The notes below the pieces were generated by a model, which saw only the letters and a program-made list of their open reading frames with translations, had not been told where the DNA came from and did not search any database. A stretch of 64,000 nucleotides of DNA from positions 1 to 64,000 of the forward strand of contig CAUYUJ010000178.1 in NCBI GenBank assembly GCA_963575745.1. Direction: 5' to 3'. The position numbers and the translations under genes were made by a program. The stretch is from Prorocentrum cordatum (taxonomy: Eukaryota). Below are positions 3,239-56,000 of this stretch, in pieces. Within the stretch, counting starts at the first letter, position 1, and every line of letters begins with the position of its first letter.

Positions 3239-3427
3239 TCGGGGGCGGCAAAGGGGGGTGATGACTAGGGGGAGGTGGATATGGCGGGGGCCATGATATT
3301 TGCCCGGATTTCATGGCGCCTCCTCTTGCTTCATTACGTCCTTGGTCCCCCCGCTGGGCCGCGCACATGCCGCCGGTCATGATCTGCACCCCCCCCTCCT
3401 GGACACCCCCCTCTTAGCCGCTCCCGA
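3239..3427. mobile_element. MITE family T2 (TCGGG..CCCGA termini), copy 1
   Basis: TIRs TCGGGGGCGGC..GCCGCTCCCGA with perfect 5-bp TSD AGGGA; similar to 49243-49438. Confidence 0.85.
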
Positions 3428-3803
3428 AGGGAGGGGCACTGGAGGCCAGAACCAGGCCAAACCTCATCATTGTTAGGTCGGGCATGTCCTCTTGCAGGCG
3501 GCCTCTGGAAGACAAATGAAACATAGTCAAAAAGAGATCAAACAATACGCCGAAAAGCACGAAGAATCGTCACCAGACTATTTTCTACTATTCTTGCAGA
3601 TTCCTCCTGCGGAGAGAAATGTCCGATTTGACATGATTGATTGTTTCGACACGCTGTGTGTCTGGTGGGCACCGATCTAGGAAGTCTGTGCGGACTTCCA
3701 GACGTTTCTGCTTCAAGCCCTCTGTTGTTGCTCCCCTGCAGGGCCCGTTTGACCTGATCGATCCGATTATACATGTATATGTGTCTATATGTGTACATAT
3801 ACC

Positions 3804-4831: not shown

Positions 4832-4955
4832 GTTCGTGGCCAACGGCAGCGAGGTGTTCGCCGTGCGCCCGCCGGAGGAGGGCCACAAGCGGCGGGACGT
4901 GCCGGTGGGCGTGTCCGCGGGGCTCCGGCCGGGCCCCAACAGCATCAGCGTGCGG
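4832..4955 (+). CDS. SIZ1/PIAS-like SUMO E3 ligase, exon B
   Basis: AG at 4830-4831, GT at 4956. Encodes FVANGSEVFAVRPPEEGHKRRDVPVGVSAGLRPGPNSISVR. The W-P..L...NG...LRPG.N pattern resembles the PINIT-like region that precedes SP-RING domains. GC3-rich codons. Confidence 0.8.
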
Positions 4956-5557
4956 GTGCTGCTGGTGGGGTCAAGCGGTGACACGTACCCAGAGCTGACC
5001 GCGTCGTAGAGATATCCGGGCGGGAGGTGTTTCGCCGTTTTCGGCCTCGGGGGGCCCTCGCCAGGCCTCGGGACCGTCCAGATTTCACGAGTCAGGATGA
5101 AAAACCGGTCCCGGGGAAAGGGTCGGGGCTTCCAGGGACTCCGTATTGAAAAAGGGGGGATACCCAGAGATCCGACGCTCCAAAAAAATTAGAGCGGGCG
5201 GATTGTGTCTGCTTTTGGCTTCCGGGGGGCCTCGCCGGGCCTCGGGAGGGATACCCAGAGATCCGACGCTCCCCAAAAATGTGACCGGGCGGATGGTGTC
5301 TGATTTGGGCTCCTGGGGACCTTCGCCGGGCCTCGGGAGCGTGAGAAAAGAATGCAGTGGTCCAGATCTCCGGGGCCCACGCATCGACAAAAATTGGAGC
5401 AGCCGGATGTCTGGGGGAGATAGATTGGCTACACGTAAGAGTGACTTCTCGCTGGAGTGGCCTCTGGCGCGGGCTCATCGGGTTCCCCCAGATCGCTGCG
5501 CGTGATGCGATAGCGGCTGACTGCGCGCTTGGATATGGCCACCTTGCGCCCCCTTCT

Positions 5558-9339: not shown

Positions 9340-9462
9340 GTGCAGGACGACCCCGCGGGCGACTTCGTGCTGGCCCTGGCGGTCACTCGGCAGGTGGGCG
9401 TGCCGGAGCTGCGGCGGCGGGTGGCCCCCAGCGACCCCGAGGAGTCGCGGCGGCGTGCGCTG
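9340..9462 (+). CDS. SIZ1/PIAS-like SUMO E3 ligase, exon C
   Basis: AG at 9338-9339, GA donor at 9463. Encodes VQDDPAGDFVLALAVTRQVGVPELRRRVAPSDPEESRRRAL, phase 0 at both ends. Confidence 0.75.
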
Positions 9463-10202: not shown

Positions 10203-11383
10203 CTCGGGATCGGCGTTGGACCCCCCCTGGCTTCGGGCCCCAGGGTCCTCACGAGAGGGTCCAGGGCTCCGGTCGTGATTTGTTTTGCGATGTTGCATAC
10301 TTTTGGCAACGTCAGATCGGAGGGAACGTCATGCATCTCGTCGGAGGTCCGCGTGGATTTCTCGAATCGGCGCTGGACCCCCCCCCCTCCCTGGCGCGCG
10401 GAGCGCGCCAGCGGCAGCTCCGGAGGCGCCGCGTGGGGGGGTTCTGGCGCAGGCCCGAGAAATCAGCGCGGACCTCCGAAGATGTTTGATTGAGCCATGA
10501 TTTGTCTTAGATCATCCGCGATTCTATAATCGTCGACGTTGGCGATGCATCGGCGACGTCGGCGTCAAGAAAATCGGGTTCCACCCTCGAGCCGCATCGC
10601 CAATACATCGGCGACGTGGAGCGCTCCCTCGACCCCACAGAAAATTGCTCAGAAGGCGGGAGGGCTCCTGAGAAGCACCGCCGCCTTCTGAGAAGGCCTC
10701 CTCCTCCTCGCTTCCCCCCCGCCCCCCGCTCGCCGCCGATATTGCGGGGGGGGGGGGATGTTCTGTTCTCGATGTGCAGTCAGCCCGCATAAGAAGAATG
10801 GGCGACCTTCCAAAGGGTACCCGTGCATCCTTGCCCCTTCGGCCCACCCGTGGCCACTTTCGCCGGCCGCACCCCGCTCGGGAAGCTTCGAAATGGCCCT
10901 CCAAGGCCCTTGCATCCTCATCGCGCATCCTTCTGATACGGGCCGAATGTACCTGATTCCCAGACCCTCGACGTCATGATTTTTTCATGACGGCGACCCC
11001 AAAGGTCTGGACCCCTTCCACGGGGCCGGTTTTTCGCCCTGGGTCGTTTTTTGACGGTCCCGAGTCCCTGTAAGGGCCTCCAGAGGCCGAAAATTGGGGA
11101 AAACCTCCCGTCGTGATTTTTGCATGACTCGAGGGGGTCTGACTTGGGCGCGCACGTCCACAATAGGCTCCCTGTGATGTCATCCGCCCCCGGGGTCGTG
11201 GGGGGAATGGGGTGGGGGGCAGGAGCAGGATGGATGGAGGGAGGGAGGGAGGGGGAGGGAGGGAGGATGAGAAGAAGGGAGCAGAGGAGAAGGAGGAGGA
11301 GGAGGGAGCAAAAATCGCCTTGGAGGAGGAGGAGGAGGAGAGGAGGGGGAGGAGGAGAGGAGGAGGAGGAGGGGGGACGCCAG

Positions 11384-11457
11384 GAGCTGCTGGCCGCCGG
11401 GCGGGGCGGCGGGGCCTCGGGCGGTGAGTGCCTCACGAGCGACGCGCTGCGGCTGAG
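11384..11457 (+). CDS. SIZ1/PIAS-like SUMO E3 ligase, exon D
   Basis: CAG acceptor 11381-11383, GC donor 11458. Encodes ELLAAGRGGGASGGECLTSDALRL(R), joining in phase 2 to give LRLRCPITM, the expected start of an SP-RING domain. Confidence 0.8.
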
Positions 11458-13413
11458 GCTCGGGGGGAGGGAGGCCAGGGGGGGAGGGAAGGGGGGAGGG
11501 GTCCCTCCTCCTCCTCCTCCTCCTCCTCCTCCTCCTCCTCCTCCTCCTCCTCCTCATCCTCCTCCTCCTCCCTCTTCCTCCTCCTCCCTCCCTCCTCCTC
11601 CTCCTCCTCCTCCTCCTCCTCCTCCTCCTCCTCCTCCTCCTCCCTCCTCTCCCCCCTCGTCCTGCTCCTCCTCCTCCTCCTCCTCCCCTCCTCCTCCTCC
11701 TCCTCCTCCTCCTCCTCCTCCTCCTCCTTCTCCTCCTCCCCCCTCCTCCTGCTCCTCTCCTCCTCCTCCTTCTCCTCCTCCTCCTCCTCTCCGCCTCCTC
11801 CTCCTCCTCCTCCTCCTCTCCCCCTCCTCCTCTCTTCCTCCCTCCTCATCCTCCTCCTCCTGCTCCTCTCCTCCTCCTCCTCCTCCTCCTGCTCCCCCCT
11901 CAACCTGCTGCTCCTGCTCCTCCTCCTCTCCTCCTCCTCTTCTTCCTCTCCTCCTCCTCCTCCTCCTCCTCCTCCTCCTCCCCCTCGCTCCTCTTCCTCC
12001 CCCTCCCTCCTCCTCCTCCTCCCTCCTCCTCCCTCCTCCTCCTCGTCCGTCTCCTCCTCCTCCTCCTCCTCCTCCTCCTCCTCCTCCTCCGCCTCCTCCT
12101 CCTCATCATCATCAGGGCCGGCCGTCGAGGAAGATCAGCCTCGAGCGGCATCTCGGTGGCACGCCCCGCGGGGGGGACTTAGAGGTTCGAGGTTCGAGGC
12201 TCGAGGCGGTGTTCATTGTTTTCGGCCTCCGGGGGCTGTTTTCGGCTCCCCGGACCCCCGAAACGCGATCCACGGTGAAAAGCCGCGTCGGGCGAACCCT
12301 GGGAGGGGTCGGGGGAGCGATTTTGACCGACATTCGGCGGCGCACCTGGGGGAGAAGTGAGGGGGAGGCTTTCTCAGGAGGCGGCGCGCCTTCTCAGAAT
12401 CCCTCCGGCCTTCTGAGGAGTTCCCTGGGACTTCGGGGGAGGCTTAGAAGACTAAGGCCGGAGGACTTACGAGCCTGCTGTGAAGGCCCGCCCCCTCTCA
12501 CTTCCCCCCCGGGCTGGCCGCCGAAACAGGGGGACCACGACCAAGATGCCTCGGGATCTTGTCGTTGCCGATCTTGGTCATGATCTACGTCGGGCGCCGC
12601 CGGCTTCCGAGGACGAGCCACGAAATGGCGTCGACTAAGATAGCCTGTGACCAAGTCCTCCCTCCTCCTCCCTCCTTCTCCTCCACCCACTCCTCCTTTC
12701 TCCTCCCTCCTCCTCCTCCCTCCTCCTCCTCCTCCTCCTCCTCCTCCTCCTCCTCCTCCTCCTGCTCCTCCTCCTCCTCCTCCTCCTCCTCCTCCTCCTC
12801 CTCCTCCTCCTCCACCTCCTCCTCCTCCCCTCCTCCTCCTCCTCCTCCTCCCCCTCCTCATCCTCCTGCTCCTCCTCCTCCTCCTCCTCCTCCTCCTCCT
12901 CCTCCTCCTCCTCCTCCCCCTCCTCCCCTCCCCCCTCCTCCTCCTCCCCTCCTCTCCTCCTCCTCCCTCCTCCTCCTCCTCCCCTCCTCCTCCTCCTCCT
13001 CCTCCTCCTCCTCCTCCTCCCTCCTCCTCCTCCTCTCCTCCTCCTCCTCCTCCTCCTCCTCCTCTCTCCTCCTCCTCCTCCTCCTCCTCCCTCTCCTCTC
13101 CTCATCCTCCTCCTCCTCCTCCTCCTCCTCCTCCTCCTCCTCCTCTCCTCTCTCCTCCTCGTCATTCTCCTCCTCCTCCGCCTCCTCCTCCTCCTCCTCC
13201 CTCCTCCTTCCTCCTCCTCCTCCTCCTCCTCCTCCTCCTCCTCCTCCTCCTCCTCCTCCTCCTCCTCCTCCGTCTCCCTCTTCCCTCCTCTCTCCTCCCT
13301 CCTGCTCCTCCTCCCTCTTCCTCATCCTCCTCCTCCTCCTCCTCATCCTCATCATCATCATCATCATCACATCATCATCATCATCATCATCATCAGCAGC
13401 ATCATTATCCTCC

Positions 13414-15831: not shown

Positions 15832-15912
15832 CTCCTCCTCCTCCCCCTCCTCCTCCTCCTCCTCCTCCTCCTCCTCCTCCTCCTCTTCTTCCTCCTCTCT
15901 CCTCCTCCGGAG

Positions 15913-16009
15913 GACCTCTGCCACGACGCCTATGCGTCGCGCGTGCTCGAGTCGGTTCCAGACGGCGTCGAGGAGGCCGTGCTCTCGCCAGACGGCAAGT
16001 TCACTTATC
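15913..16009 (+). CDS. SIZ1/PIAS-like SUMO E3 ligase, exon F (3' end uncertain: 15994 or 16009)
   Basis: DLCHDAYASRVLESVPDGVEEAVLSPDG(KFTY) matches the post-RING L..D.Y...IL......V.EV....DG motif. Candidate donors are GCAAGT at 15995 and GTGAGA at 16010. Confidence 0.75.
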
Positions 16010-16904
16010 GTGAGAGGCTTACGCCGTTCTGACGACCTTCAATATAGGTAAGGGAAGAGGGATCGTCTGACCTCCACGGCCAGATGCCTCGGGCAGGGCA
16101 AAACGCATCGTGACTCCTCGTTCTCGCGGACTCCAAGTCCGCGAACGCAGGAGCCAGAGCCAATTGGCCACAGCGAGCTGAGCACCAAACGACGAGAGCG
16201 AGCTGCATGCCGCGGTCCGTTTTTCGAGCCGCGTCCAGGCTCCGATGATGACACGCCTCCCTGGCCGTGCCGCCCCAAGCCACCCGAGAGGTGTACCGCT
16301 CCCTCGGGCGACACCACACCTCCACGCCCGCCATGGCGGGGCACCCTGGCCGTGGGAAGGAAGGGTGTGGGATCCCCCGCGAGGCCCCCGCACCGGACCC
16401 GCCTCCCGCCCAGGCGCACGCGGGGTACGTGCCGGGCCACCGCGAGGGAAGGCAAGGCGACGAGGGAGCAATTTTCCTCCTCCTCATCCTCCTCTTCCTA
16501 CTCCTCCTCCTCCTCCTCCTCCTCCTCCTCCTCCTCCTCCTCCTCCTCCTCCTCCTCCTCCTCCTCATCCTCCTCCCTCTCCTCCTTCCTCTCCTCCTCC
16601 TCCTCCTCCTCCTCCTCCTCCTCCTCCTCCTCCTCCTCCTCCTCCTCCTCCTCCTCCCTCCTCCCTCCTCCCTCCTCCCCGAGGCCCCCAACAGGCAAAC
16701 AGGGGTCACGAACCGGCTGCTGCCCGCCTGTCTTCTCTGGGAAGGGGGCCCAGTGGCACAAGTGCCGAAACAAGGGAGGAGGAGAAGGAGGAGGAGGAGG
16801 AAGAGGGGAAAGACGGCAGGCGCTGATGATGATGAGGAGGAGGATGCTGATGATGATGACGACGATGACGATGATGATGACGATGACGATGACGATGATG
16901 ATGT

Positions 16905-27600: not shown

Positions 27601-27786
27601 GCCCCCCCGAGGCCGAGGTTGACCAGAAGCCTGCCGCCCTGATGCTTCTGCTTGCTGCGACGCGCTCATGTCTGGGCTCCCCTGCTGCAGGCACACCGCC
27701 CCGCCACCAGGCCTTCCGCACGGCCGCCGATCTCTCTCCCACGGCCTTGGCACCCCGGGCGAGCCCGGGGCCCCGCGGCTTCCAAG

Positions 27787-27933
27787 GCGGCGCTCGGGGA
27801 GGCCGACGCCCCCCCGCGCGGGGAGGTGCCGTGCCTGGACGTGACGATCTCGCCGCAGCACGGCGCTCCTCCCAGCAGCGGCGCCAGCGTGCCGCCGGAG
27901 CTGGACCTGGAGCCGGGGCGCCCCGCGGCGCAG
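27787..27933 (+). CDS. Candidate downstream exon of the SP-RING gene (disordered C-terminal region; 5' boundary uncertain)
   Basis: GC3-rich non-repeat island encoding AALGEADAPPRGEVPCLDVTISPQHG...GRPAAQ. The CAG|GTCAC donor is mirrored by the CAG|GTCAC acceptor at 32011-32018. Confidence 0.5.
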
Positions 27934-28146
27934 GTCACCAGGGGCAGTACGGCAGGGGGGCTGTAATGAGGCCGAGGGCCGCGAGGCTCGAGGCGTTCGT
28001 GGGTTCTCTCTCGGCGGCGGTGTGGCCTCGGGAGGCGCTGCAGCAGGGGCGCCTCGCCGAGAGCGTGCCCAGGGGTGCCCGGGCCGCCCCGAGCGGCCGC
28101 CGGAGGCCCGAGGCGTGGCCCGGAAGCCACCAGGGGCGGTGGATAA

Positions 28147-32013: not shown

Positions 32014-32560
32014 GTCACGGGGCTGGAGCTGCCTCCAGACCTGGGGGCGAAGGCCCCGCTGGGGCCGCGGGGGCCGTCGCCCCTGGAGCTGCACGCGGGC
32101 GCAGCGCTCGAGCGCCTCGTGGCGCCCTGCGCGCTGGGCGCGGAGCTCCGGCCGACGGGGGCGAGGGCTGGGCCGCCAGGGCGCCGGGAGCTCGGCGCCC
32201 GATCGTCGTCGCCCGTGCAGCTGGACAGCCCGGACGCGCCCCGAGAGGGCGCGGCGCCGTGCGCGCCCGCCGCGGCGCCCGCCGCGGCGGCGCCGCGCGC
32301 GCCCGCCGTGCTGCCGTGCGCGCCCTCCACGGCGCCGTGCGCGCCCGCCGCGGCGCCCGGAGATGCCGCGCCGCCGAGAGGGCCACCGCCGGCGGCGGCC
32401 CGGCGTCCCCCAAACGGTGTGGTGGCCACGCCGCGCGGCGAGTCCGTGCGGCTTCGAGGTCACCGCGCGGTCGTGGGACTCGGGCCGTTCTCCGAGGGCG
32501 TCTCGGGCGACCGGGGCCCCCGAGGTCCCACGACCGTGCGATGGCGGACCGCGCGGTGAG
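32014..32560 (+). CDS. Candidate Ala/Pro-rich exon of the SP-RING gene (3' end and frame uncertain)
   Basis: CAG acceptor 32011-32013. Open frame VTGLELPPDLGAKAPLGPRGPSPLELHAGAALERLVAPCALG... in phase with the previous candidate exon. Confidence 0.5.
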
Positions 32561-43287: not shown

Positions 43288-46256
43288 CATCATCTTCCTC
43301 ATCCGATCCAGACCTTCACATTTCTCCTCGCGACCTGATGTTCCCCAGACCTCCAGCGTCTTGAATAAGTCGACGCGTCGGTGTTTCCACGTTTTCGGCC
43401 TCTGGGGGCCCTCGTCGTGGGCCCTTCGATCCGACGTCGCGAACAGCAACATCGCGAAAAATCGTGATCGGAGTCCTTGTCCCCATCTTTCTGCTGCATT
43501 TGTCGAGCCGGAGCAACCTCGTAGCACCCCGCAGTTGCGGGTAAGATGTAGAGGGGGCGGCGCGAGCGAACGCATCGCCCCTTTGCGTTGCTTCAAGTGG
43601 TGCTCCCATGTCCTGCCCACATGTACTGCCCCCAAGTTTCGCCCCCCATGTATCGCCCCGACGAACTGCCCCCATGGATTGCCCCCTTGCCCCCATGTAT
43701 CGCCCCCAAGGACCACCCCCATGTACTGCCCCCAAGTATCGCTCCCACGTGTTGCCCCCAAGTGTCGCCCCCAGAGGCGGAGCCCTTCATCTATCCACAC
43801 GCGCGCAGGGAAGAAGCAAGACAGTTCGGGCCCCCTCAGTCATGTACAGTCGGGGCGCTGAGGAAGAAACCTTTTTTGTTTGGGAGGGGCTCGGTGTTCC
43901 TTGATTGTTTCAGAGTTTGCCTCGGGTTTCCCGGAGGTTTTCCATGGGAAATCGAGGTTGAACTTATTGGAAATAGGGGCCTCGTTCCTAATTTACGGTT
44001 CCTTAGGTCAACGCCCCGACTGCATCACCCCCAGGTGTCGTTCCCATGCACTGCCCCCGGGTAGCGCCCCGATGCAGTGCCCCCACGTATCGCCCCCAGA
44101 GACGAAACTAAGCCCTCCATCCAGCCACGCGCGCCCAAAGAAGAAGCAAGACCGTTCGGGCCCCCTCATTCTGACTCGGAGGTGGACAGAACCCCCAACA
44201 GTGACACGTCGATTAGTGAATTGTCCGTTTTCGGTTCTCGAGAGGGCGCCGTGGCCGTCATTTTCCAGGCTTGCGCCCGCCAGGTTTGGGCATCAGGTGG
44301 TTTTCACTAAACCACGTTTTACTAACGGGGGGTCTGTCCATCCCCGACTGACCAGCCTGGAACATATCCCGATCCTTATGATTGGCATCGCCTGATCTCG
44401 ATGTCGGTCGTAAGGATTCCCTGAGTTTCTGAGGGCGCATCCCTGAGATTGTCATCGCAGTTGGGCTTGTCCACCTTCGGGAGAGGGATAGTGAAGGCAA
44501 GATCGAGATTGGCGAATCAAAACGCCGGTTTCTCGTCGTTTTTGTCGGCCCTCCCCGGGCCCTGGGGTTGTCAACTAAAGGACTCGCCCTGGGGGCCTCG
44601 TGAGGGGTGCTCTGAAAGCCCTGGGGGCCTCCCAGACGAGAAGCCGGCCCTGGTCCCCAAGCTTGACGACCTTTCGCGAGCCGACTTGTGGGAACCGAGC
44701 CGGATAGCTCAAGGCAAACGCCGATGAATCGAAGCAAATCCAGATAAGCCTTTGCAAATAGTAGCAAATCCACGTACAACCGAGCATTTGATGAAGAGAC
44801 CTCAAAAAGTCGGACCAGCGTTTCTCATCAACTTTCCAGAAAGCTGGCCCAGATTCTTGAGCACGTTCGCTCTTCCAGCGTCAGCAACAGAAATTGGCCA
44901 AGGCTTGTTTTAAGAAACTTCGAGGAAGCTGGACCAGATGTCTTAAATGAGATGTGTCTTGATCAAGTGCTCGACTGCAAATCCGGGCAATTCCAGGCAA
45001 GTCCAAGTAAATCCAATTATCTCCTGGGAATGTGTGGAGCAAATCGTTGCCGTTCGCGAGTCGAGGGACGGCAAAAGTCGTTGAGTCCTTCACGACCTCG
45101 GGAAAGTGTCGGGACTTCCAGGGACTTTCGGCCTCTGGAGGCCCTCGCTGGGCCCTGGGACCGTCAAAGAACTGCTCAGGGCGAGAAGCCAGCCCTGGGG
45201 CAAGGGTTGGAACTCCAAGGGCTCCCACGAGGGCGCGAAGTTATTCGCGCTTCGTGGTCCTCGTTCCTGCCCCCCCTCCTCCTCGTCCTCCTCTTCTCCC
45301 TCAGGGGGGGCGGCGCGAGAGCGCGAAGTCATTCGCGCTTCGCGGAGCGCGAAGCGCGAAGTTGGGAGCCCCAGGACCTCTCGGGACCCCGTGTTGAACA
45401 AGTCAAGACGTCGGAAGTCTGGGGGAGGAGAGGAGGGCGAGGAGGAGAAGGACGCCGCAGGGAAAAGGTCGGGACCTCGGATGGCCGGGGGAGGAGAGCG
45501 AGGAGGCGAGGAGGGCGAGGAGGAGAAGGAGGGCGAGGAGGGCGAGGGGGGCAAGGGGAGGAGAGGAGAGGAGGGCGAGGATGGCGAGGGGGGGCGAGGA
45601 GGAGGGGAGGGCGAGGAGGGCGAGGGAGGGCGAGGAGGGCGAGGGGAGGAGAGGCAAGGAGGCGAGGAGGGCGAGGAGGGCGAAGGCGGGCCGGGGCTTC
45701 CCTGGGGCCCGGCACGGGATCACAAGACGAAACACACATAATTGGCAAGACCTCGGCTGCCCGGGGAGGCCGCGCCGCGGGCGGCGCCGCCGGCCAGCGA
45801 GGCGCAGCGGTGCGCGCTGGGCGGCGCCGGAGGCCGGAGAAGAGGAAGCGGCATGAAGAGACAGTGGAGGCCAGTCATTGGTCTCCACTCGGTCACCAGT
45901 GGCAAGAAGCACCCTTCGGGCCGGACGAAAGGGGGGGGATTGGGAAAGGGGGGGCTACGAAATTTGCTGCGCATTGGAAAACAACAAGACGGAGGTTTCT
46001 CTAAGTTTTTGGCCTCTGGGGGCCCTCGCCGGGCCCCGGGACCGTCAAAGAACGACTCGGGACGAAAAACCGGCCCCGGGGAAAGGGTCGGGAATTCTGG
46101 TGACCGAGTATTGAAAAAGTCACGGCATCGGATCTCTGGGTACAGTGGGGACCAGTGCCAAGAAGCACCCTGTTTGCCTCCATTCTGCCATGGGCTTCTT
46201 GGGTTTCGGCAGCTTTGCGATGGAGAGCGTGGCGTTCCCACACCAAGAAGCACCCT

Positions 46257-46441
46257 TCGGGCCGGACGAAAGGGCGGGAGTGGGAAAGGGGGGGCTACGA
46301 AATCTGCTGCATGCAGCTGGTTTCGGCCTCACCGAGGGGCCGATTCCTCGATACATAGCCGCCTCCGGCGCCGGGAAAATCAGCTACGTGAGCTGATTCT
46401 CAACCCCCCCCTTTGCTATCCCCCCCTTTCGCCCGACCCGA
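46257..46441. mobile_element. MITE family T1, copy 2
   Basis: TIRs TCGGGCCGGACGAAAGGG..CCCTTTCGCCCGACCCGA with perfect 5-bp TSD ACCCT. A truncated third copy starts at ~45916. Confidence 0.85.
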
Positions 46442-48604
46442 ACCCTGTTTGCCTCCAGGCTGCCATGGGTTTCTTGGGTTTCGACAGCTTTGCGATGGAG
46501 AGCGTGGCGTTCCCACACCAGAGGTCAATGGTCGTCCTGGGGTCTCAGGGTTGGGCTTCTTGCGGAAGGTTTCTTATGGTCGGGCCCCATATTGCACAAG
46601 GGGTTCGTACCCAGAGATCCGAGGCTCCCCAAAAATTGGAACAGGCGGATTTGGGCTGACTTCGGCCTCCGGGGGCCCTCGCCGGGCCTCGGGAGCGTCA
46701 AAAAAAGATTCGGCGCGAAAAACCAGCCCTAGGGAAGTGGTCCAGACCTCCGGGATCCACGCATCGAAAAAATTGGAGCAGCCGGATATCTGGTGAGGGG
46801 GGGGCGTCCCAAGGTGGGGTTCGTTTCCCTCCCAACCCCACCTCTGGCCCCCTACCCAACCTTTCCGCACCCCCCGACAAGCCTCCTCCCGAAGAGCTGG
46901 GCCAGCGTCTCTTCGCCGATTTGATGGAAAGCTGGCAGGTCTCTCGAGCACGTTCGCCCCGCAGCGTTGACGAGCAAATCTGGCCCAGGCTGGTTTCAAG
47001 AAATGTCTGAGAAGCTGGCCCAGGTTTCTCAAGCGATAACTCCAGCCACGCGCAGAGGGGGTTGGGGGGAAGGGGGAGGGCTTCCTAGAAGCACCCCTGC
47101 TTCTCGGCGCCTTCTGAGAAGCAGCCTCCTTCTAACAAGCCTTCCCCCCTCCCTCCACCCCCTCCTCCTCCTCCTCCTCCTCCTCCTCCTCCCCCTCCTC
47201 CTCCTCCTCCTCCTCCTCCTCCACCCCCTCCTCCTCCTCCTCCTCCTCCTCCTCCTCCTCCTCCTCCCCTGTGCGCGCCGCCAACAGCAGCCTTGCGCAG
47301 CTGCTCGGCCGTGAGCTCTCGAAGCTCCGCGCGGGCTTCCCCAGAGGGGCGCCGGGCCCCCCGTGGCGCGCTGCGCGCGCGCCGCTTGGAACGACACACC
47401 GCGGGGGCTGCCAAGGGGAAGAGGGGGGGGCTCCAGGTGGGTGCTGCTCGAGGTGGTTTGCCCCCAGAGATCCGACGCACCGAGCAGATCAAGACGGGGG
47501 TTCTGCCGAGGTTTCTGGCCTCTGGGGGCCATCGCCGGGCCCCGGGAGCGTCAAAAAGCGACTCAGGACGGAAAGCCGGTCCCGGGGAAAGGGTCGGGAC
47601 TTCCGGGGGCCCCGCATTGACAAATATCACGACATCGGATTTCTGGGGTGGGTGCTGGGGCGGTTCGTATCTGGCTTCATCTGGCATGCACGTGGGCCAC
47701 CAGGGGCCCGGAGTGGCTCGAGGGAGTCCCATGACTCCGCCAAGTCGACGGAGCCCGCGGAGCTTGGATCTATACCCGCGCGCGCCCGGGCGCGCGCGGG
47801 CGCGCGCGCGCGTGCGTGCGTGCGTGCGCCCGCGGCAGTCGGGGGCACATGCAACCCAGTTCGAACCAATGTAGCATCCACTTCGAGCCCCCCTGGCAAG
47901 CCCCGTTGTGGTCCAAGCAGGGAGGGGGTGGCCGGCGCCGCTCTGGGAACTCCGCGCGGGCCCCTGAAGGCTTATGGTTCTGCTCGGCGCCGAGCCCAGG
48001 GGGCAATGCAGAGGGGGCGGGCCCAAGGCAACGACCACAACGACCAATGCGTGTCTGCTGCTGTACTCCGTGAGAGCACGTGGAGAAAAGGCTCGCCGAG
48101 GACTCTGCCGACCCTCGGTGTGAACTCGCTGGCCCAGCTTGCTCGAGCCTGGGACTCGACCCAGGGACACTGCAGAGGGGGCGGGCCTGCACGGGAGGCT
48201 TCAGGCCTTCTGCGAGGTTCCCCGTGCCTTCCCAGACATCGGGCGTCTCGAAAAAAACGAGACGAGGGTTTTTCAACGTTTTCGGCCTCTCGGGGCCCTC
48301 GCCGGGCCTCGGGGCTGTCGGAAAACGACCCGGGACGACAAACTGGACCCTGGAAGTGGTCGGGAGGTCGTGGGCCCACGTCTCGAAAAATCGAGACGTC
48401 GGATGTCTGGGTTCTCCGAAGGCACGGACGGCTTCACAGCAGGCGCGGGACCTTCTGCGAAGCCCCGCCATGCCTTTCTGAGAAGGCCTGCCCCCCTCGG
48501 ACGCCTGGTGGCTTTTTGGGTTATCAATCGGCTGCCCCGGAGGAGGAGGAGGAGGACGAGGAGGAGGAGGAGGAGGAGGAGGAGGATGAGGAGGAGGAGG
48601 AGGA

Positions 48605-48726
48605 GGGGGCCCTTCGGGACGAGCCCGTCACCCCCCGGAGCGCTCTCGGCGAGGCGCGGCTGCTGGAGAGCACCCCGAGGCGAGAGAGCCGCCGAGGCCC
48701 GACGAGCACGCCCGAGAGCGTCGAAG
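48605..48726 (+). CDS. Candidate exon (boundaries approximate)
   Basis: Coding-like island GALRDEPVTPRSALGEARLLESTPRRESRRGPTSTPESVE between a GGA tract and a MITE. Similar weak islands lie at ~45769-45850 and ~47271-47415. Confidence 0.3.
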
Positions 48727-48792
48727 CTCTGGCCCAGACCCAGAGATCCGCTGTCGTGATTTTTTCAATACGGGGTCCCCGGAAGTCCCGAC

Positions 48793-48944
48793 CAGGGGGC
48801 CACCTGCGAACCCTCCCCCCACCCCCCACGATTTCTGAGGGGGGGGGGGTTCACTTCGCTCGGGAGCTCCCGAGCGAAGTGAACCCCACCCTCCCCCTCA
48901 GAACTCGTTGGGGGGTAGGGGTAGGGTTCGCATGTGGCCCCCTG
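48793..48944. mobile_element. Foldback (fully palindromic) 152-bp element nested in a C1 MITE
   Basis: Termini CAGGGGGCCAC..GTGGCCCCCTG, 5-bp TSD CCGAC, perfect 42-bp loopless palindrome at 48846-48887. Confidence 0.8.
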
Positions 48945-49138
48945 CCGACCCACTCCCCAGGACCGGTCTCTCGTCCTGAATCGTTTTTTCACGGTCCCGG
49001 GGCCCGGCGAGGGCCCCCAGAGGCCAAAAACTTGGAGAAGCCTCCGTCCTGATTTTTCCATGCGTTGGATCTCTGGGGAGCCCCCTCTCGCTTCCCCCTC
49101 GGGCTCGCCGCCGACACGCCGTTCTGCCGCCCTCCAAG

Positions 49139-49490
49139 AGGGGCGGGGCTCGCGCAGAAGCGGGCGGGTGCGGAGCCCGAGGCCGCCTGCAGCGGCGCGG
49201 CTGCGCCCGGCAGCCTGGACCTCGTCTCGCCCCAGCGCAGGATCGGGGGCGGCAGAGAGGGGGGTGATGACTAGGGGGGGGGGGGATATCATGGCGGGGG
49301 CCATGATATTTCCCCAGATTTCACGGCGCCTCATCTTATTTCATTACGTCCCTGGCCCCCCTGCTGGGCCGCGCACATGCCGCCGGTCATGATTTGCACA
49401 CCCCCCCTCTTGGACACCCCCCTCTTGGCCGCTCCCGACAGGAGCAAGCGGATCCGCCTCACCGGCTCTCTGGGCGCTCAGAAGTTCGAG
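49139..49490 (+). CDS. Candidate exon pair split by a MITE-derived intron (49241-49441); outer boundaries uncertain
   Basis: Removing 49241-49441 (GA..AG) gives ...AACSGAAAPGSLDLVSPQR-RSKRIRLTG, including a basic NLS-like stretch. The second part ends at 49464 (GC donor) or 49490 (GT donor). Confidence 0.45.
49243..49438. mobile_element. MITE family T2, copy 2 (candidate introner)
   Basis: Same TIRs and body as 3239-3427; perfect TSD CAGGA (49238-49242 and 49439-49443). Confidence 0.85.
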
Positions 49491-49890
49491 GTTCGAGCTT
49501 TTTGGTTTCGCAGTTGCGTCTCAGACATGAGATCGCGGCGTACACAGTTCAGGACGGAGGTTTTTCACTAGTTTCGGCCATTGGGAGCCCTCGCCGGGCC
49601 CTGGGGCCGTAAAAAAACGCCTCGGGGTGAAAGACCAGCCCCAGGGCAAGGGTAGATGGACTTCTGGAGACGCCGTATGTCAGGGAAAGAAACACACACA
49701 GACACAGTCAGTCGTCGGCTCCCAGGAAAGTAGAGGAAAGCATGGAATGTGGGGGGGGGGAAGACCAAAGCCCAGAAACTATATGGGAAAATCTCGGGAA
49801 CATCCTGGGGGTTGTGTCTACTTCTTTGCGTGGCCCTGGGCCCCGTCAGCATGGAAAACATCAGGGCGCCCCACGTCTGGGGTCGGTCCT

Positions 49891-50073
49891 CCCAGACATC
49901 GGGCGTCTCGAACAAATCGAGGCGCAGGTTCTTCCTCGTTTTCGGCCTCGCGGGGCCCTCGCCGGGCCTCGGGACCGTCACGAAACGACCCGGGACGGAA
50001 AACTGGTCCCGGGGAAGTGGTCGGGAGGTGGGGGGCCCGCGTCTCGCAAGAATCGAGACGTCGGATGTCTGGG
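49891..50073. mobile_element. Representative copy of the dominant ~185-bp MITE family C1 (CCCAG..CTGGG termini, 2-bp TSD); tens of copies across the window
   Basis: TSD CT here. Other checked copies: 7779-7961 (AA), 48231-48411 (TT), 50225-50411 (CT), 51418-51603 (TA). Further copies cluster at 2.8-8.7 kb, 45-51.6 kb, 58376-58559 and 62-64 kb, in both orientations. Confidence 0.85.
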
Positions 50074-51664
50074 CTCGGCGCTTGCCCAGCCTCGGGGCGC
50101 GCTCTCTAGCAGGAGCGCTCCGCCGCGAGCGCTCCGGGGAGGGGCGCCCGGAGCCTCCCGAGCGGCCGCGGGAGGCCCGAGCTATGGATGGCCCGACGGC
50201 CACCGGGCACGGGGGAGTTGGGCTCCCAGAGATCCAGCGCATAGGAAAGATCGAAAAAGACATGTTTTTGTTTCAGTTTTGAGCCTCTCGGGGCCCTCGC
50301 TGGGCCTCGGGACCATCAAGAAGCGACTCGGGACGAAAAGCCGGTCCCGGGAAAAGGGTCGGGACTTCCGGGGACCCCGCATTGAAAAAATCACGACACC
50401 GGATCTCTGGGCTCTGAAGAGGAAGCATCGACCCCCCAATCGCCCCTTCATCACCAATATAGGGGCCTGAAACAGCAGACCACCCCGGCCAGGGCTCCGG
50501 GGCACGATGCCGCAGAAACACGCGGTCGCATGGATGCGTCCCGAGGGTCGCACGGACTCGTTCCCAGACATCCGGCTGCTCTAATGTCTTCGATGCGTGG
50601 GCCCCAGAGGTCCGGACCACTTCCCCGGGACCGGCTTTTCGTCCTGAGTCGTTTTGTTGACGCTCCCGAGGCCCGGCGAGGGCCCCCGGAGGCCGAAAAT
50701 TATCAAAAGTCGCCTGCTCAAATTGTTTGGGAGCGTCGGATCTCAGGGTTCCGCGCGGGGCCTCCGCGAAAAAGTGCCCCGGGTCGCGGCCCAGGGGCCC
50801 AGCCCGCGAGGCCGCGGATACGCATGATATGTTTCTGGTTGACCCAAGAAGGGGTCCAGCTACAAGGGGGTGGTGCAATAGATCTGGTGCGTTAGACTTG
50901 TGGGTTGCAATCGGTTTTGGGCGTGCAAGACATCCTGGGGCGCAAATGTATTGCTGGACTTTCGCGTGCAATAAAATATAGAGGCAACACGAGGCAATAC
51001 AGTTCTCTGGCGGAGTACATTTGCAGTACAAGTGCCCCAAATCTATTGCACCACCCCTTTCAACTGGACCCCCTTTTCCCAGACAGCCGACGCCTCGACT
51101 TTTTCGTGACGCGGGTGCCCCACCTCCCGACCCCTTCCCTGGGGCCGGGTTTTGTTTCACCCCGAGCCGCTTCCTGACGGTCCCGAGGCCCAGCGAGGGC
51201 CCCGAGAGGCCAAGAGCAGCGAGCAAAAAGCCGCCTCGATTTGTTTTCCAGACGCCCGGTGTCTCGGTTTTCTGGGCCACCCAAGTTCAGGAGGGGAAGA
51301 ACGCACACAGACACAATGAAGCGTCGATTCCGTAGAAGAAATGGGAAAAGATGGGCGGCGAGGGGGGGGGAAGACAGAAACCCAGAACCTGTGGGAAAAT
51401 ATGGGGGCATCTGGTTACCCAGACCCCCGACGTCGTGATTTTTTCATGACGTCGACCCCCAGAGGTCTGGACCCTTTCCCCGGGACCGGTTTTTCATCCT
51501 GAGTCGTTTTTTGACGCTCCCGCGGCCCGGTGAGGACCTCCGGAGGGCGAAAATAGCGAAAAACCTTCCGTCGTGATTTTTTCACGACGCGAGGGGGTCT
51601 GGGTATTTGTGTGCACTTATTTGTGTGTCCTTGGGCCCCTGCACGCGCGCCCCTCGGCGGCGAG

Positions 51665-51831
51665 GCTCCCCGGGCGCGGCCTCGGACTCGGGCTCCGGGA
51701 CGCCCTCCGTGCTCCTGGCGCCGTCGGCCCCGGCGGTGGCGATTGACCTGGACGACCTGTCCGATGGCTCGCCTGCGCGCGAGCTCGGTCCGATAGGGAC
51801 CGCGGGGGGGCCGGCCCAGGACGCAGGCTAG
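51665..51831 (+). CDS. Candidate late/terminal exon with a SUMO-interacting-motif-like sequence
   Basis: AG at 51663-51664. Encodes (G)SPGAASDSGSGTPSVLLAPSAPAVAIDLDDLSDGSPARELG...AG-stop. VAIDLDDLSD resembles the hydrophobic-plus-acidic SIM of PIAS/Siz proteins. Confidence 0.5.
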
Positions 51832-51833
51832 GG

Positions 51834-52867
51834 TCAGGTCGGGCACGTCCCTCTCCAGGAGGAGTGGTCAGAAACAGTTGTTATATATATATATATATAT
51901 ACAAGTGGCACGTGTGTGCCCAGGCTCATACAAAACACTGAAGGGGCGTTTGAAGCAGGAGTGAAATGCAACATCGAAGTCGCACTCGAGCGCAAGTGGG
52001 GTTGCCACACCTTGCGATGTGTGTACCAGGACCCCCCAGGAAGCCTCAGGAGGCCCGACTTGGATACCAGAAGAGGCTCCAGGAGGCCCCAGGATTGTGA
52101 GTGTTGTGCGTGTGTGTGTGATGTATGCTTTGTGTGGTGCGTGCTTTTTGTGTGTTGTAGGTGTTGTGTGTGTGTTATGTTTGTCTAGCGTGTGATGTGT
52201 TGGGCGTGATTTGTGTCTCTGTGTGCATGTAGTTCTGAAGCCCCAGGAGGCCCCAGGAAGCCCCAGGCGGCCTCAGGAGGCCCCAGGAGACCCCAGGAGG
52301 CTTCAGGAGGCCCCAAGAGGCTCCAGGAGGCCGCAGGAGGCCCCAGGAGGCCCCAGGAGGTTTCAGGAGACCCCCAGGAGGCTCCGAGGCGGGGTCTGGG
52401 GTGCCAGAAGGTTCAGAAAGCCCCAGGAGGCCCCAGGAGGTTCCAGGAGGCCCCCAGGAGGCTCCGAGGCAGGGTCTGGGGCTCGATTTTGGAAGGATTT
52501 TTCAAGCGAAACCGCCATTCCCTGAGAATCGGGGTCACAATTATTGAAATTACAAAGTGTTTTTGGACCCTGACGTCACGATCTGCGTGAGGGGTGCCAC
52601 CGATTTTCAGAATTTCGAGGATGTCCTGAGCGAAACGCCCAGAAAAATCGCGGACGCGTGCGCATTAATCGCCTCTGAGCTCTATTCCCTCGGAGAGGTG
52701 CGTATGATAATATATATAAATAAATATGTAACAAGAACAAACAATTTAAAAAAAGAAACTGTCTGGGGGGCGATGTTTGCGAGGATTGGTTTGCAGTGTT
52801 CGCATGCTTGTCGAAGCTGTCTATGTTTCGTCCAGGATCCGCCTGCAGGGGGGCATGCCCGACGTGA
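51834..52867. mobile_element. TIR-bounded composite insertion flanked by a 20-bp direct repeat
   Basis: Ends TCAGGTCGGGCACGTCCC / GGGCATGCCCGACGTGA. Flanks GCYCAGGACGCAGGCTAGGG at 51814-51833 and 52868-52887. Related TIR motifs occur at ~3475, 4596-4760, 53590-53736 and 62188-62654. Confidence 0.55.
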
Positions 52868-53043
52868 GCTCAGGACGCAGGCTAGGGCGCGCGCGGGGGA
52901 GTGCGAGCCGAGCGGTAATTTCAGCAGGGGCCAGCGACGCGGAGCTCAGTCGGTGGCGCCGCCTCTGCTGCGCATAGAGGCCAACACGCGTTCGCCGCCG
53001 ATCCTTGCGGGCACGGAAAAGGGCCCCCCAGGGGGCAGCGAGG

Positions 53044-53082
<39 letters not shown>

Positions 53083-56000
53083 CCAGAGAGCCAGAGAGGG
53101 AGAGGGAAGGTTGCGTGCACGCACACCTCGCCAGTGGCTCCGATGGGTCGGAGCTCGTCTTGTCGGAGGCGACGATAGGGGCGAATAACCCAGGGAGGGG
53201 GGGGGCCGGGCAATACATGTATCCAGGGGTGCCGATGATCTATGTCTTGGACCAGGCTCCCGGGCGAATGCGTGTAATGCCTGCCCCTGGGCTGTTCGCC
53301 CTTACCGTCGCCGCCGATCTTGGCGCTCCTGCCGTCGATGCCAGAGCAGCGAGCTTGCAAGCGTGGGGGCAGCCCCCAGCCAGGGAACGCAGGGGGGGGG
53401 GGGGGGCAACACCGCGGCGGCGCGCAGGAGGGGGGGGGGCGCAAGGGAGGGCGGCCTGCCAAGAGGGCCGGGGGGCCTCCGAGAAGCCCTGCCTGGCCTG
53501 CGGGGGCTTCTTCGAACGGGCCTCTGAGGCCTTCCACGGGAGCCGCGGCGCTTCCGTCGCCCGCCCCCTTTCGACGCAGAGCCAAGCAGGGGGCCTGTCC
53601 CTCTACAGGAGGGCTCTTCAAAAACAGTACAAAAAGTAGTCTTGGGGACGATTTTTACAATCTTTGAGTATTTTAAGAATATGTTTAGACTATTTTGTAT
53701 CTGCCGTCCAAAATCCGGGGGACAGGCCCGACCTAGTGCAGGTACCCCTGAGAGCCCCCTGCACCCAAGACTCCCCCAGGGAGCGCTTGACAAGGAGCGC
53801 GCCCCAATCACTCAAAAGTATGCTGATCCGACATTCAGAGGCGACGCGCGAGCTGTGGCACATCGTATCTCACAGCTTCGGCAGCATCGAGGAGCAAGCA
53901 AAAATAAGGTATGGGAGGTCCGCGCGGACTTCTTGGATCGGCGCTGCAGTTCCCTAGCGGCGCCTCCGGCGCCGCCCCTGGCGCTCTCCGCGCGCCAGGA
54001 AGGGGGGCCCATCGCCGATCCAAGAAATCCGCGCAGACCTCCGAATCATTGTGTTTATGTCGTTCATTGTCCCTCGAAGCAATGATCCATCGTGCGCGCC
54101 GTCATCACTGCATTCACCGCGCCCAAATCAGAAGCGACCCATTTGTTTTTGTTCTGCTGTTCGTGATCTGTTCAACCACGTGTTGACGCTCGGCCCAGAG
54201 CTCGTCCGGTCATCTGACATTTGAGCCGCGATGCAAAATTGTGATGGGCAAAATGCAATTTGAAAATGTGCTAGAGTTGTCCGTCTGCACTCCCATGTGG
54301 CCCAGGTGGGCTTTCCACGAGCTCCGCAATGTCTACGAAAATTCACTGGTGGTGGTGCCATCTTCCAGGAGGTTTGGGCCCAGCACATGCCGACACTTCT
54401 GTAGAACTGCGGTCAAGGCTCGCGGAGACCATCGAAGTGTGCTCGGAGCACGGAAGCAGGGAATGCGTCGGGCTACCGGTATGACATCAGATTTCTGCCT
54501 CGAGATGCGCATCGGTCGGGAGGGGGGCCCTCTTTGAAGTGTGGACTTGTGAGCGTACGGAGGCAAGTCGTGGCATGGGCGCGACTGGATGATGAATGGA
54601 CGCCTCCTCATCATTATCATCGTCCTTCCCCTTCCCCCAATTTCCTGCTCACGTTGTTCCCCCCCCCACCCTCCCCCGCCCCCTCCCCGTCCCCCCCCCC
54701 CCCCAGCCCGGACGTCCGGTGGCTCGATGTTCGAGCCAGGAGACCTCACATTGTTTGACCCATTCCCTGGGGCTGGCTTTCCAGCCTGAGTCAGGTTTTG
54801 ATGGCTCCAGGGCCTGAAAACATCCTCATCAAATGTTCAAAACTAAGAAAGCAATACATGCCACAGGATTTCTAGCTTACATCCATCAGACATCGTACGG
54901 ATAAACATCCAATTCCATAGATTCCAGACTTGGCCACAGAAAATCAAGAACCTGGATTCTGCAAAAGAACCAAAAGTATGACCAGACGTTCAGCACGCCA
55001 GGCAGCCCTTCGATAAATCAACACGTGGTGGCGGATCGAAGACGCCTACAGCGAATCACCGCCGCCCCCTGCCTTTTTAGGATACGCCTATGTGGCCACA
55101 CGTTTGGGCAATGCTTGGCTACGCTATTGCACCATGTGTTCCCCCAGCCGTTGTGGATGCTCTTCGGGGAACACGCGGGGGAGGAAGAGGAGGAGGAGGA
55201 GAGGGAGGGAAAAGAAGGATAAGAAGCAGGATGAGGAGACCCTCTTGGGAGCTTATTAAGTCATTGTTGGGCCTCCTGGGAGCCTCCTGGGAGCCTCTTG
55301 GGGGCCTCCGGGGGGTATCCTTGGACCTCTTGGGTGCTTCTTCGACCGCCTTACGGCGTTCCTGGCCCGTCTCACGCCGTCGGAAGCCGTCTTGAGAGGC
55401 TCTCTGGCCCGTCTTGGGGCCCTCCTTGGGCGCTTCAGGGTCGTCTTGAAAGCCATCTTGGGCGCCTTGGAGGCCTCCTGGGCCGTCTTTGGGCCCTCTG
55501 GGGGCCGTCTTGGGAGCCTCTTGGGCCGTCCTGGGATCATCTTGGAGGCCACTTGGGCGATCTTGGGACGATCTTTTGGGGCTCTTGGGCCGTCGGAAGG
55601 CCGGAATGAAGCAAATGCCACAGTCCTTCAAAAACATTTGGCCTCCTCGGGCCTTCTGGAGGCCTTCTTGGAGGCCTCTTGGGCCACCTTGGAAACCTCC
55701 TGGGGGCCTCTTGGACCGTCTTGGGAGCCTCTTGGGCCGTCCTGGGGTCATCTTGGAGGCCTCTTGGGCGATCTTGGGGCTATCTTTGGGAGCCTTTGGG
55801 GCCGTCTTGGGAAGTCGGAAGGACATGTTGAAGCAAATGTCAAAATCCTTAAAAAAAAAACCCAAAGGAGAATCAATGATGTTGGTCGCTTCGGGAATTC
55901 CTGGAGGACCTCTTGGAGGCCTCTTGGGCCGTCTTCGGCGCCTCTTTGGCGTTTCTTGGACCGTCCTGTGCTCTCTTGGACCACCGTGGCGGTCTTGGAG

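What the first reader, a model, noticed from the sequence alone, without database searches (positions are those of the whole stretch)
49238..49443. MITE whose target-site duplication supplies both splice sites (introner caught in the act)
Seen: a T2 MITE with TSD CAGGA. The left TSD gives CAG|GA (GA donor) and the right TSD gives CAG|G (AG acceptor), so splicing 49241-49441 exactly restores the pre-insertion sequence and an open frame (SPQRRSKRIRLTG). A sister copy (3239-3427, TSD AGGGA) sits passively inside an intron. Established: introner elements and GA donors are documented in dinoflagellates. Inference: with relaxed donors, any 5-bp-TSD element landing on AG|G(A/C/T) becomes an intron.
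Basis: partly seen in the sequence, partly recalled or inferred. Interest (0 to 1): 0.7.

Follow-up and report, generated by a model that had tools for sequence, protein, structure and literature searches.

The report
Transposon-made intron in a dinoflagellate gene
A 196-base miniature transposon landed in the coding part of a dinoflagellate SUMO-ligase-type gene and is removed from the messenger RNA as an exact intron built from its own insertion scar, which is a clean example of a way of making introns that is already described in these algae.

Summary
A 196-bp terminal-inverted-repeat element lies at 49243-49438, flanked by a perfect 5-bp duplication, CAGGA. A sister copy (88.8% identical, duplication AGGGA) lies at 3244-3422.

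The flanks are coding exons. A 530-letter contig from a public run matches the window without a mismatch. It stops at 49242 and resumes 20 letters later at 51664. An annotated protein labelled Prorocentrum cordatum equals, residue for residue, the translation with 49241-49441 removed. A 666-aa relative with a MIZ/SP-RING finger reads straight across the site.

Of the six equivalent cut registers, only GA..AG followed by G has an AG acceptor.

The mechanism is in print. Roy et al. describe 5-nt duplications of the form NAGGH that supply both splice sites (Polarella class 12). Dougan et al. report introner elements in 2.4% of P. cordatum introns. This is therefore a new member of a known kind, and "caught in the act" is overstated.

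Not tested: a genome-wide tally, absence of the intron in orthologues, and raw junction reads.

The parts
49243..49438 (+). T2 element: a 196-bp non-autonomous TIR (foldback) transposon. The 11-nt termini are TCGGGGGCGGC / GCCGCTCCCGA, and the arms pair over about 60 nt.
49238..49242 (+). Left copy of the 5-bp target-site duplication CAGGA. It holds the end of exon B (CAG) and the GA donor (49241-49242).
49439..49443 (+). Right copy of the duplication CAGGA. It holds the AG acceptor (49440-49441) and the first exon bases (GA).
49241..49441 (+). The intron as spliced: 201 nt, GA..AG|G, phase 2. It equals the element plus one duplication copy.
49141..49240 (+). Exon B (100 nt), coding ...GAGLAQKRAGAEPEAACSGAAAPGSLDLVSPQR(R). 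It is preceded by a GC..AG|G intron, 45833-49140.
   Evidence: record 17, piece 49138-49242, 0 mismatches
49442..49464 (+). Exon C, a 23-nt micro-exon coding (R)SKRIRLT(G). It is followed by a GC..AG|G intron, 49465-51664.
   Evidence: P0002 equals the joined translation. P0003 reads RRSKRIRLSG. The 20 unplaced letters of record 17 fit it.
45766..45832 (+). Exon A of the same transcript.
51665..51830 (+). Exon D, the end of the coding sequence (TAG at 51828-51830). It codes a tail containing IDLDDLSD.
3244..3422 (+). Sister T2 copy, in the same orientation, with duplication AGGGA at 3239-3243 and 3423-3427. It lies inside an intron of the same gene.

Best explanation
A non-autonomous DNA transposon (T2, 196 bp, TIRs, 5-bp target-site duplication) inserted into a 123-nt coding exon. 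The exon belongs to a roughly 52-kb SP-RING/MIZ (SUMO-ligase-type) gene on the + strand of a genome whose identical proteins NCBI labels Prorocentrum cordatum.

The duplicated target was CAGGA. The left copy therefore offers CAG|GA, a GA donor that dinoflagellate spliceosomes tolerate. The right copy offers CAG|G, an AG acceptor followed by the favoured G. The spliceosome removes the element plus one duplication copy (49241-49441). This restores the pre-insertion reading frame and leaves a 100-nt exon and a 23-nt micro-exon.

The paired arms probably bring the two sites together.

Shown: the element, the duplication, the second copy, exonic and coding flanks, and the exact removal from the mature RNA or gene model.

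Inferred: that the cut is at the GA/AG register, that the spliceosome makes it, that insertion created the intron rather than the reverse, and the role of the hairpin.
For: Anatomy of the element, duplications and second copy. Hairpin: (z -4.24; 0 of 200 shuffles as stable).

RNA-type evidence. Run X14 is labelled 'RNA?', which is a guess; it holds 120 million letters. Its record 17 is 530 letters at depth 43.9 and lies on the window in four pieces with 0 other letters:
- 45766-45829
- 49138-49242
- 51664-51830
- 52874-53017
Twenty record letters between the second and third pieces are unplaced. The record leaves the genome exactly at the end of the left duplication and does not enter the element.

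Gene model. Protein P0002 (NCBI, 'unnamed protein product, partial [Prorocentrum cordatum]', 118 aa) is identical to the translation of 45766-45832 + 49141-49240 + 49442-49464 + 51665-51830. These four exons plus 52874-53017 add up to the 500 placed-or-bridged letters of record 17.

Conservation. P0003 is 666 aa, comes from an assembled 2349-nt contig, and is 81% identical over the tail. It reads ...ISPMRRSKRIRLSG... without a break at the insertion site.

Gene identity. P0003 carries zf-MIZ (PF02891, E 6e-18, 64.8 bits against a cut-off of 33.5). tblastn places its exons along the window from about 793 to 51828.

Coding signal: GC at codon positions 1/2/3 is 0.79/0.71/0.92.

Register: 1 of 6 equivalent registers is GA..AG|G. 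The other five lack an AG acceptor.

Neighbouring introns of the same record are GC..AG|G.

Precedent:
- Roy et al., bioRxiv 10.1101/2020.10.14.339549 (parts 1-2 of the text read): class 12 has a 5-nt TSD NAGGH supplying both sites, and GA donors are enriched in recently gained introns.
- Dougan et al., PMC10666404 (passages and supplement passages read): introner elements in 2.4% of P. cordatum introns; their annotation pipeline was modified to accept GC and GA donors.
Against: - The 20 letters of record 17 that should be 49444-49463 were too short for the aligner to place, and I could not read them. The junction 49240/49442 is therefore not displayed as a row of the joint table (15 of 394 joints were shown).
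- X14's RNA status is a guess by the tool.
- All laid runs are contigs, not raw reads, so there are no junction read counts and no splicing efficiency.
- The gene model P0002 may rest on the same kind of transcript evidence, so it is not fully independent.
- A second annotated model (P0001) does not use the GA donor. It runs 9 nt into the element to a GC donor at 49252 and skips the micro-exon.
- Only 1 of the 3 T2 copies I could see is an intron.
- No genome is held, so the family's behaviour as an introner elsewhere is unknown.
Confidence: 0.85

Rival explanations
1. The transcript comes from an identical paralogue or allele that never received the T2 insertion (an empty site). On this view the copy in the window is not spliced at the duplication, or is a dead copy.
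For: Dinoflagellate genes are highly duplicated (Dougan et al. passages). A contig cannot say which copy it came from. No DNA run could be shown to lack an empty site.
Against: The record matches this locus with 0 mismatches over about 480 placed letters in four exons. The register GA..AG|G is just what a spliceable insertion needs. The genome's annotators placed a GA-AG intron here. An insertion that destroyed the frame of the only copy would not be expected to keep a perfect duplication in the one register that works.
Confidence: 0.06
2. The element is removed by a hairpin- and direct-repeat-guided mechanism that does not read GA/AG. This has been discussed for the non-canonical introner introns of Amoebophrya. 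On this view the GA..AG register is incidental.
For: The ends pair strongly. The cut register cannot be read from the product. The last intron of the same record (51831-52873) is also a TIR element with flanking direct repeats, yet has GG..AG or GG..GG borders. Earlier notes of this scan on the same genome report element introns without AG (unchecked leads).
Against: A canonical-for-dinoflagellates register exists here and is the simplest reading. The two other introns of the record are GC..AG|G. Roy et al. explain the same geometry through the ordinary spliceosome. In the GG intron the cut is not in the same register of its two repeat copies, so it is not repeat-guided precise excision either.
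Confidence: 0.07
3. An older intron already separated exons B and C, and T2 merely landed in it or replaced it. The match between duplication and splice sites would then be coincidental.
For: None specific. Most T2-like copies sit in introns, including the sister copy.
Against: The intron consists of the element plus one duplication copy and nothing else: 201 = 196 + 5. No residual older intron sequence exists. The relative P0003 is collinear across the site.
Confidence: 0.02

Closest known systems
Introner-like elements of Polarella glacialis, class 12 (5-nt TSD; mode NAGGH), and classes 13/14 (4-nt TSD AGGH). Source: Roy et al., bioRxiv 10.1101/2020.10.14.339549; the later Curr Biol 2023 33:189 version was seen only as a reference.
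   Same: A DNA transposon with a 5-nt duplication. Both splice sites are recruited from a duplication of the form xAGG(A/C/T), and the intron equals the element plus one duplication copy. GA donors are typical of young gains.
   Different: Different species and order, and no sequence comparison was possible. Class 12 elements are said to begin with C, which gives GC donors in the second mode. T2 begins with T, so its second mode (xxAGG) would give GT; this is inferred, not observed.
Introner elements (IE) as counted in the P. cordatum genome paper (Dougan et al. 2023, PMC10666404), using the criteria of Farhat et al. 2021 (PMC7789003).
   Same: Inverted repeats of 8-20 nt and direct repeats of 3-5 nt within 30 bases of the intron ends. 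This intron meets both criteria, in the species named on the identical proteins.
   Different: That paper reports a pattern count (2.4% of introns). In the passages I read it gives no families, duplication rules or splice-site origin.
Introners of Micromonas and Aureococcus (Huff, Zilberman and Roy 2016). Cited in the papers read; not read here.
   Same: Non-autonomous DNA transposons that create introns on insertion by using the duplication for a splice site.
   Different: As described, one splice site is carried by the element and the other comes from the duplication. Here both come from the duplication.

Membership tests
Introner / introner-like element (transposon that creates an intron on insertion) | Multi-copy mobile element with terminal inverted repeats and target-site duplication | tested here: met
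   There are 2 full copies in the window with different 5-bp duplications. A third copy in run X14 has flanks that imply AGTGA (table 7). Up to 93 contigs of run X1 cover one variable place of the element (table 3).
Introner / introner-like element | Element plus one duplication copy coincides exactly with an intron absent from mature RNA | tested here: met
   Record 17 leaves the genome at 49242. P0002 equals the translation without 49241-49441. Caveat: 20 letters of the record are unplaced, and the evidence is contigs, not reads.
Introner / introner-like element | Many members of the same family form introns in different genes | not testable with these tools
   No genome is held. Metagenome scans gave 0 hits and 5 chance hits. 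Viral scans gave 0 hits. Of the 3 copies seen, 1 is an intron.
Introner / introner-like element | Intron absent at the orthologous position in relatives (a gain, not an ancestral intron) | not testable with these tools
   Only a relative's protein (P0003) is available. It is collinear across the site, but its genomic locus could not be fetched.
Polarella class-12-type mechanism (5-nt TSD NAGGH gives both splice sites) | 5-nt duplication matching NAGGH, with donor G+H and acceptor AG inside the duplication | tested here: met
   CAGGA fits N=C, H=A. The register GA..AG|G is the only one of 6 with an AG acceptor.
Polarella class 12 itself (same element family) | Element begins with C; sequence homology to class 12 | tested here: not met
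   T2 begins with T. T2 works like class 12 but is not filed as a member.
IE pattern of Farhat et al. / Dougan et al. | Inverted repeat of 8-20 nt and direct repeat of 3-5 nt within 30 bases of each intron end | tested here: met
   The 11-nt termini start 2 nt inside the intron, and the 5-nt direct repeat is CAGGA. The definition was read.
MIZ/SP-RING zinc-finger proteins (the host gene) | zf-MIZ domain above Pfam's gathering score | tested here: inconclusive
   The criterion is met for the relative P0003 (64.8 bits against 33.5). The window encodes a near-identical stretch from 15321, but I did not scan the window's own exon against Pfam.

The most novel reading that the evidence does not exclude
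In this genome, TIR elements may be excised from RNA by recognition of the hairpin rather than of standard splice dinucleotides. The same transcript carries a second TIR-element intron with GG borders. An alternative model uses a GC donor inside the T2 arm that skips the 23-nt exon coding the basic KRIRL motif. Introner insertions would then create both non-canonical introns and protein isoforms of a SUMO-ligase-type gene.
Probability: 0.1. Interest if true: 0.55.

Novelty: new member of a known kind. Interest (0 to 1): 0.2.

Why it matters
This is a well-documented single case of intron gain by transposon insertion in a bloom-forming dinoflagellate. It shows a perfect scar, coding flanks, a conserved relative and a spliced product.

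It supports the published rule that relaxed donors (GA or GC) let a short duplication supply both splice sites.

It adds an element family (T2, 5-bp duplication, starting with T) in an order other than the one studied in detail so far.

It does not change the current picture. Its value is as an annotated example and as a seed for a family-level tally in this genome.

Tried and rejected
- Whole-genome tally: impossible, because no genome is held for this window.
- Earlier notes of this scan: nothing near this place and no look-alike of the element. A word search gave 8 shown of 49 notes on introner cases in other pieces of the same genome. I used these only as leads.
- Sequencing runs: no listed holder is on record as RNA, and all shares were small, at most 0.14. 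I laid 4 of the 19 listed runs (X1, X10, X14, X2) and did not lay the other 15.
- Runs X1, X10 and X2 gave mostly repeat-family contigs of about 60-240 letters and no informative bridge over the site. This is not evidence about expression.
- Metagenome scan with 24 nt of exon B: 0 matches.
- Metagenome scan with 20 nt of the T2 core: 5 loci, all chance matches, since only 20-22 nt align.
- Viral contigs with two T2 core motifs: 0 and 0 matches.
- Rfam at E <= 1 on 48800-49900: 34 matches, all far below gathering scores, from generic hairpin (miRNA-precursor) models. The best over the element was 31.1 bits against 137. I rejected these as meaningless.
- Search for further relatives of the protein tail: only P0003 itself among 4644 candidates.
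- ORF listing in this 65% GC region gave 78 overlapping ORFs and was useless for calling exons.
- Introns 1 and 3: I looked for T2-like termini at their ends and found none. Intron 3 does begin with GCTC, and GCTC follows it. This fits the published 4-nt GHNN pattern but may be chance.

Full report
**1. Is the thing there?**

Yes. Reading 48900-49800 and 3100-3560 shows a 196-bp element at 49243-49438. Its termini are TCGGGGGCGGC and GCCGCTCCCGA, inverted with one mismatch. It is flanked by CAGGA at 49238-49242 and again at 49439-49443.

A second copy lies at 3244-3422 in the same orientation, flanked by AGGGA on both sides. The two copies align over their whole length and similarity stops at the duplications. 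blastn gives 88.8% identity over 196 columns and finds no third full copy in the 64 kb.

The arms are longer than the 11-nt termini. Positions 1-63 match the reverse complement of 134-196 at 74.6%. The transcript of 49231-49452 folds into a long hairpin of -118.8 kcal/mol. Shuffles give -97.3 +/- 5.1, so z is -4.24, and 0 of 200 shuffles fold as well.

This is a miniature TIR (foldback) transposon with a 5-bp target-site duplication.

**2. Are the flanks exonic?**

The region is about 65% G+C. A stop-to-stop ORF list gave 78 overlapping frames and was uninformative. No whole genome is held.

I therefore asked for public runs holding 44400-54300. Nineteen runs were listed, all with small shares, and none is on record as RNA. 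I laid four of the nineteen.

Three of them (X1, X10, X2) gave mainly short contigs of repeat families. The fourth, X14, is labelled 'RNA?' by the tool, which is a guess, and holds 120 million letters. It contains one 530-letter contig (record 17, depth 43.9) that lies on the + strand in four pieces, each with 0 mismatches and 0 gaps:

| Window | Record letters |
|---|---|
| 45766-45829 | 31-94 |
| 49138-49242 | 95-199 |
| 51664-51830 | 220-386 |
| 52874-53017 | 387-530 |

The record leaves the genome exactly at the last base of the left duplication and never enters the element. Twenty of its letters (200-219) were too short to be placed.

If they are 49444-49463, then, allowing for letters shared by both sides of each joint, the introns are as follows:

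| Intron | Borders |
|---|---|
| 45833-49140 | GC..AG, then G |
| 49241-49441 | GA..AG, then G |
| 49465-51664 | GC..AG, then G |
| 51831-52873 | GG..AG |

The five exons add up to exactly the 500 letters of the record from position 31 on.

**3. Independent support for the 23-nt exon and for the frame**

I searched the protein collection with the translation of 51667-51827 and found 3 proteins among 929 candidates.

Two are 100% identical to the query. NCBI labels both 'unnamed protein product, partial [Prorocentrum cordatum]'.

- P0002 (118 aa) equals, residue for residue, the translation of 45766-45832 + 49141-49240 + 49442-49464 + 51665-51830. The genome's annotators therefore placed the same GA..AG intron and the same micro-exon.
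- P0001 (114 aa) is an alternative model. In it exon B runs 9 nt into the left arm, to 49251. It then uses a GC donor at 49252 and skips the micro-exon.

The third protein, P0003, is 666 aa and comes from a 2349-nt assembled contig. It is 81% identical over the tail and reads ...ISPMRRSKRIRLSGAGSPVAASDSGSG... where the window reads ...VSPQRR|SKRIRLTG|SPGAASDSGSG....

The sequence across the insertion site is therefore conserved coding sequence.

GC content at the three codon positions of the joined coding sequence is 0.79, 0.71 and 0.92, and the intron is in phase 2.

**4. The gene**

P0003 carries a MIZ/SP-RING zinc finger (PF02891, E 6e-18, 64.8 bits against a cut-off of 33.5). tblastn of P0003 against the window places its parts in order on the + strand:

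- 793-1051
- 4818-4958
- 9340-9462
- 11333-11458
- 15321 onward (the SP-RING stretch, nearly identical)
- 15907-16080
- 27775-27936
- 32014-32526
- 49077-49241
- 51598-51828

The host is thus a gene of about 52 kb of the SUMO-ligase type. I did not scan the window's own exon against Pfam.

The sister T2 copy (3244-3422) lies between the homology-defined exons 926-1051 and 4818-4958. No RNA was laid on that part.

**5. Mechanism**

With a 5-nt repeat on both sides, six cut registers give the same mRNA. Only one of them, 49241-49441, has an AG acceptor. It reads GA..AG followed by G. This is the dinoflagellate pattern of relaxed donor (GT, GC or GA), AG acceptor and a following G.

The intron is the element plus one duplication copy and nothing else (201 = 196 + 5). 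Insertion into a 123-nt exon is therefore the only economical history.

Shown:
- the element, the scar and a second copy;
- coding, conserved flanks;
- exact absence of the element from a mature-RNA-like contig and from the annotated protein.

Inferred:
- the spliceosome cuts at the GA and AG register;
- the hairpin helps to juxtapose the sites;
- the insertion is evolutionarily recent.

On age, the only data are these. The duplications are perfect. The two window copies differ by about 11%. The window copy differs from the majority of family contigs at two places, 49283 and 49400 (table 3). 'Caught in the act' is therefore more than the data show.

**6. The family**

In run X1, up to 93 contigs carry the majority letter at 49400, and 24 to 32 contigs do so at the two variable places in X2 (table 3). 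T2 is therefore abundant in those runs.

Two loose ends in X14 fit one further copy. Its flanks imply the duplication AGTGA, and none of that copy's six registers is G[ACT]..AG. In that contig the element is retained (table 7). This is a single anecdote consistent with the rule.

A joint 49262 to 49411 at depth 1616 in X14 points to a deletion derivative made of little more than the arms (table 5).

Attempts to collect more copies failed:
- metagenome contigs gave 0 matches, then 5 chance matches;
- viral contigs gave 0 and 0.

**7. What is known**

Roy et al. (bioRxiv 10.1101/2020.10.14.339549; parts 1 and 2 of the text read) describe introner-like elements in dinoflagellates.
- Class 12 of Polarella glacialis has a 5-nt duplication and recruits the acceptor from it, either as NAGGH (both sites from the duplication) or as NNAGG (donor G plus the element's first base).
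- Classes 13 and 14 use AGGH.
- GA donors are over-represented among recently gained introns.

Dougan et al. (PMC10666404; passages and supplement passages read) define introner elements by inverted repeats of 8-20 nt and direct repeats of 3-5 nt within 30 bases of the intron ends. They report such elements in 2.4% of P. cordatum introns. They also adapted their annotation tools to GC and GA donors.

A search for 'Prorocentrum cordatum' plus 'introner' gave 7 papers (6 listed). In the passages I read, none describes element families or duplication rules for this species. The main text of PMC12130899 does not mention Prorocentrum (0 occurrences); I did not open its datasets.

T2 begins with T, not C, so I do not file it in class 12. 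By the same logic its xxAGG mode would give GT donors, but this is inference only.

**8. Rivals**

- The transcript stems from an identical copy with an empty site. I cannot exclude this with contigs, but it is unlikely given the 0 mismatches and the working register.
- The excision is hairpin- or repeat-guided and indifferent to GA and AG, as discussed for Amoebophrya. The evidence in its favour is the last intron of the same record. That intron is a TIR element with 30-nt arms (51834-63 and 52838-67, 80% complementary). A 20-nt direct repeat flanks it (51814-33 and 52868-87), and its borders are GG. But it is not cut in the same register of its two repeat copies, and the two other introns of the record are ordinary GC..AG.
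- An older intron was hit by T2. This is contradicted by the intron consisting of the element plus duplication only.

**9. Verdict**

The mechanism is already in print, and the phenomenon has been counted in this very species. This is a new member of a known kind. It is useful as a clean annotated example and as a seed for a family tally, but it is not surprising to a specialist.

Noticed in passing
window 51814-52887: The last intron of the same transcript (51831-52873) begins right after the in-frame TAG at 51828-51830. Its borders are GG..AG or GG..GG, so it has no GT, GC or GA donor. It is itself a TIR element, with 30-nt arms at 51834-63 and 52838-67 (80% complementary). A 20-nt direct repeat flanks it (51814-33 and 52868-87, 95%). 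The cut is not in the same register of the two repeat copies.
   Followed up: partly
window 49243-49253: A second annotated protein (P0001) implies an alternative GC donor at 49252, inside the left arm of T2. It skips the 23-nt exon, so the basic stretch SKRIRLT is replaced by IGG. I cannot say whether this isoform exists in RNA.
   Followed up: partly
window 793-53017 (+): Almost the whole window is one gene of about 52 kb for a MIZ/SP-RING zinc-finger protein, judged from the relative P0003. The public models P0001 and P0002 cover only its last four coding exons and are marked partial.
   Followed up: partly
window 49262-49411: Run X14 holds, at depth 1616, a contig that joins 49262 to 49411 with 7 other letters between. 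This looks like a deletion derivative of T2 reduced to its two arms.
   Followed up: no
window 48960-49060, 49558-49653, 49926-50073, 50277-50391, 50584-50732, 51078-51222, 51457-51566: Many copies of another repeat family of about 100 nt fill the neighbouring introns in both orientations. They are seen as inverted pairs of 46-110 nt at 74-91%. They have very high contig depth in all four laid runs.
   Followed up: no
window 52226-52458: A tandem array of a 10-nt unit (about CAGGAGGCCC) lies inside the last intron.
   Followed up: no
window 49465-49468 and 51665-51668: Intron 49465-51664 begins with GCTC, and GCTC follows it in the exon. This fits the 4-nt GHNN duplication pattern published for Symbiodinium-type introners. 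I found no matching terminal inverted repeat, so it may be chance.
   Followed up: partly
window 48806-48931: Another strong hairpin lies in intron 1. It draws sub-threshold matches to many miRNA-precursor models (best 56 bits against a gathering score of 124). It is probably another foldback element.
   Followed up: no
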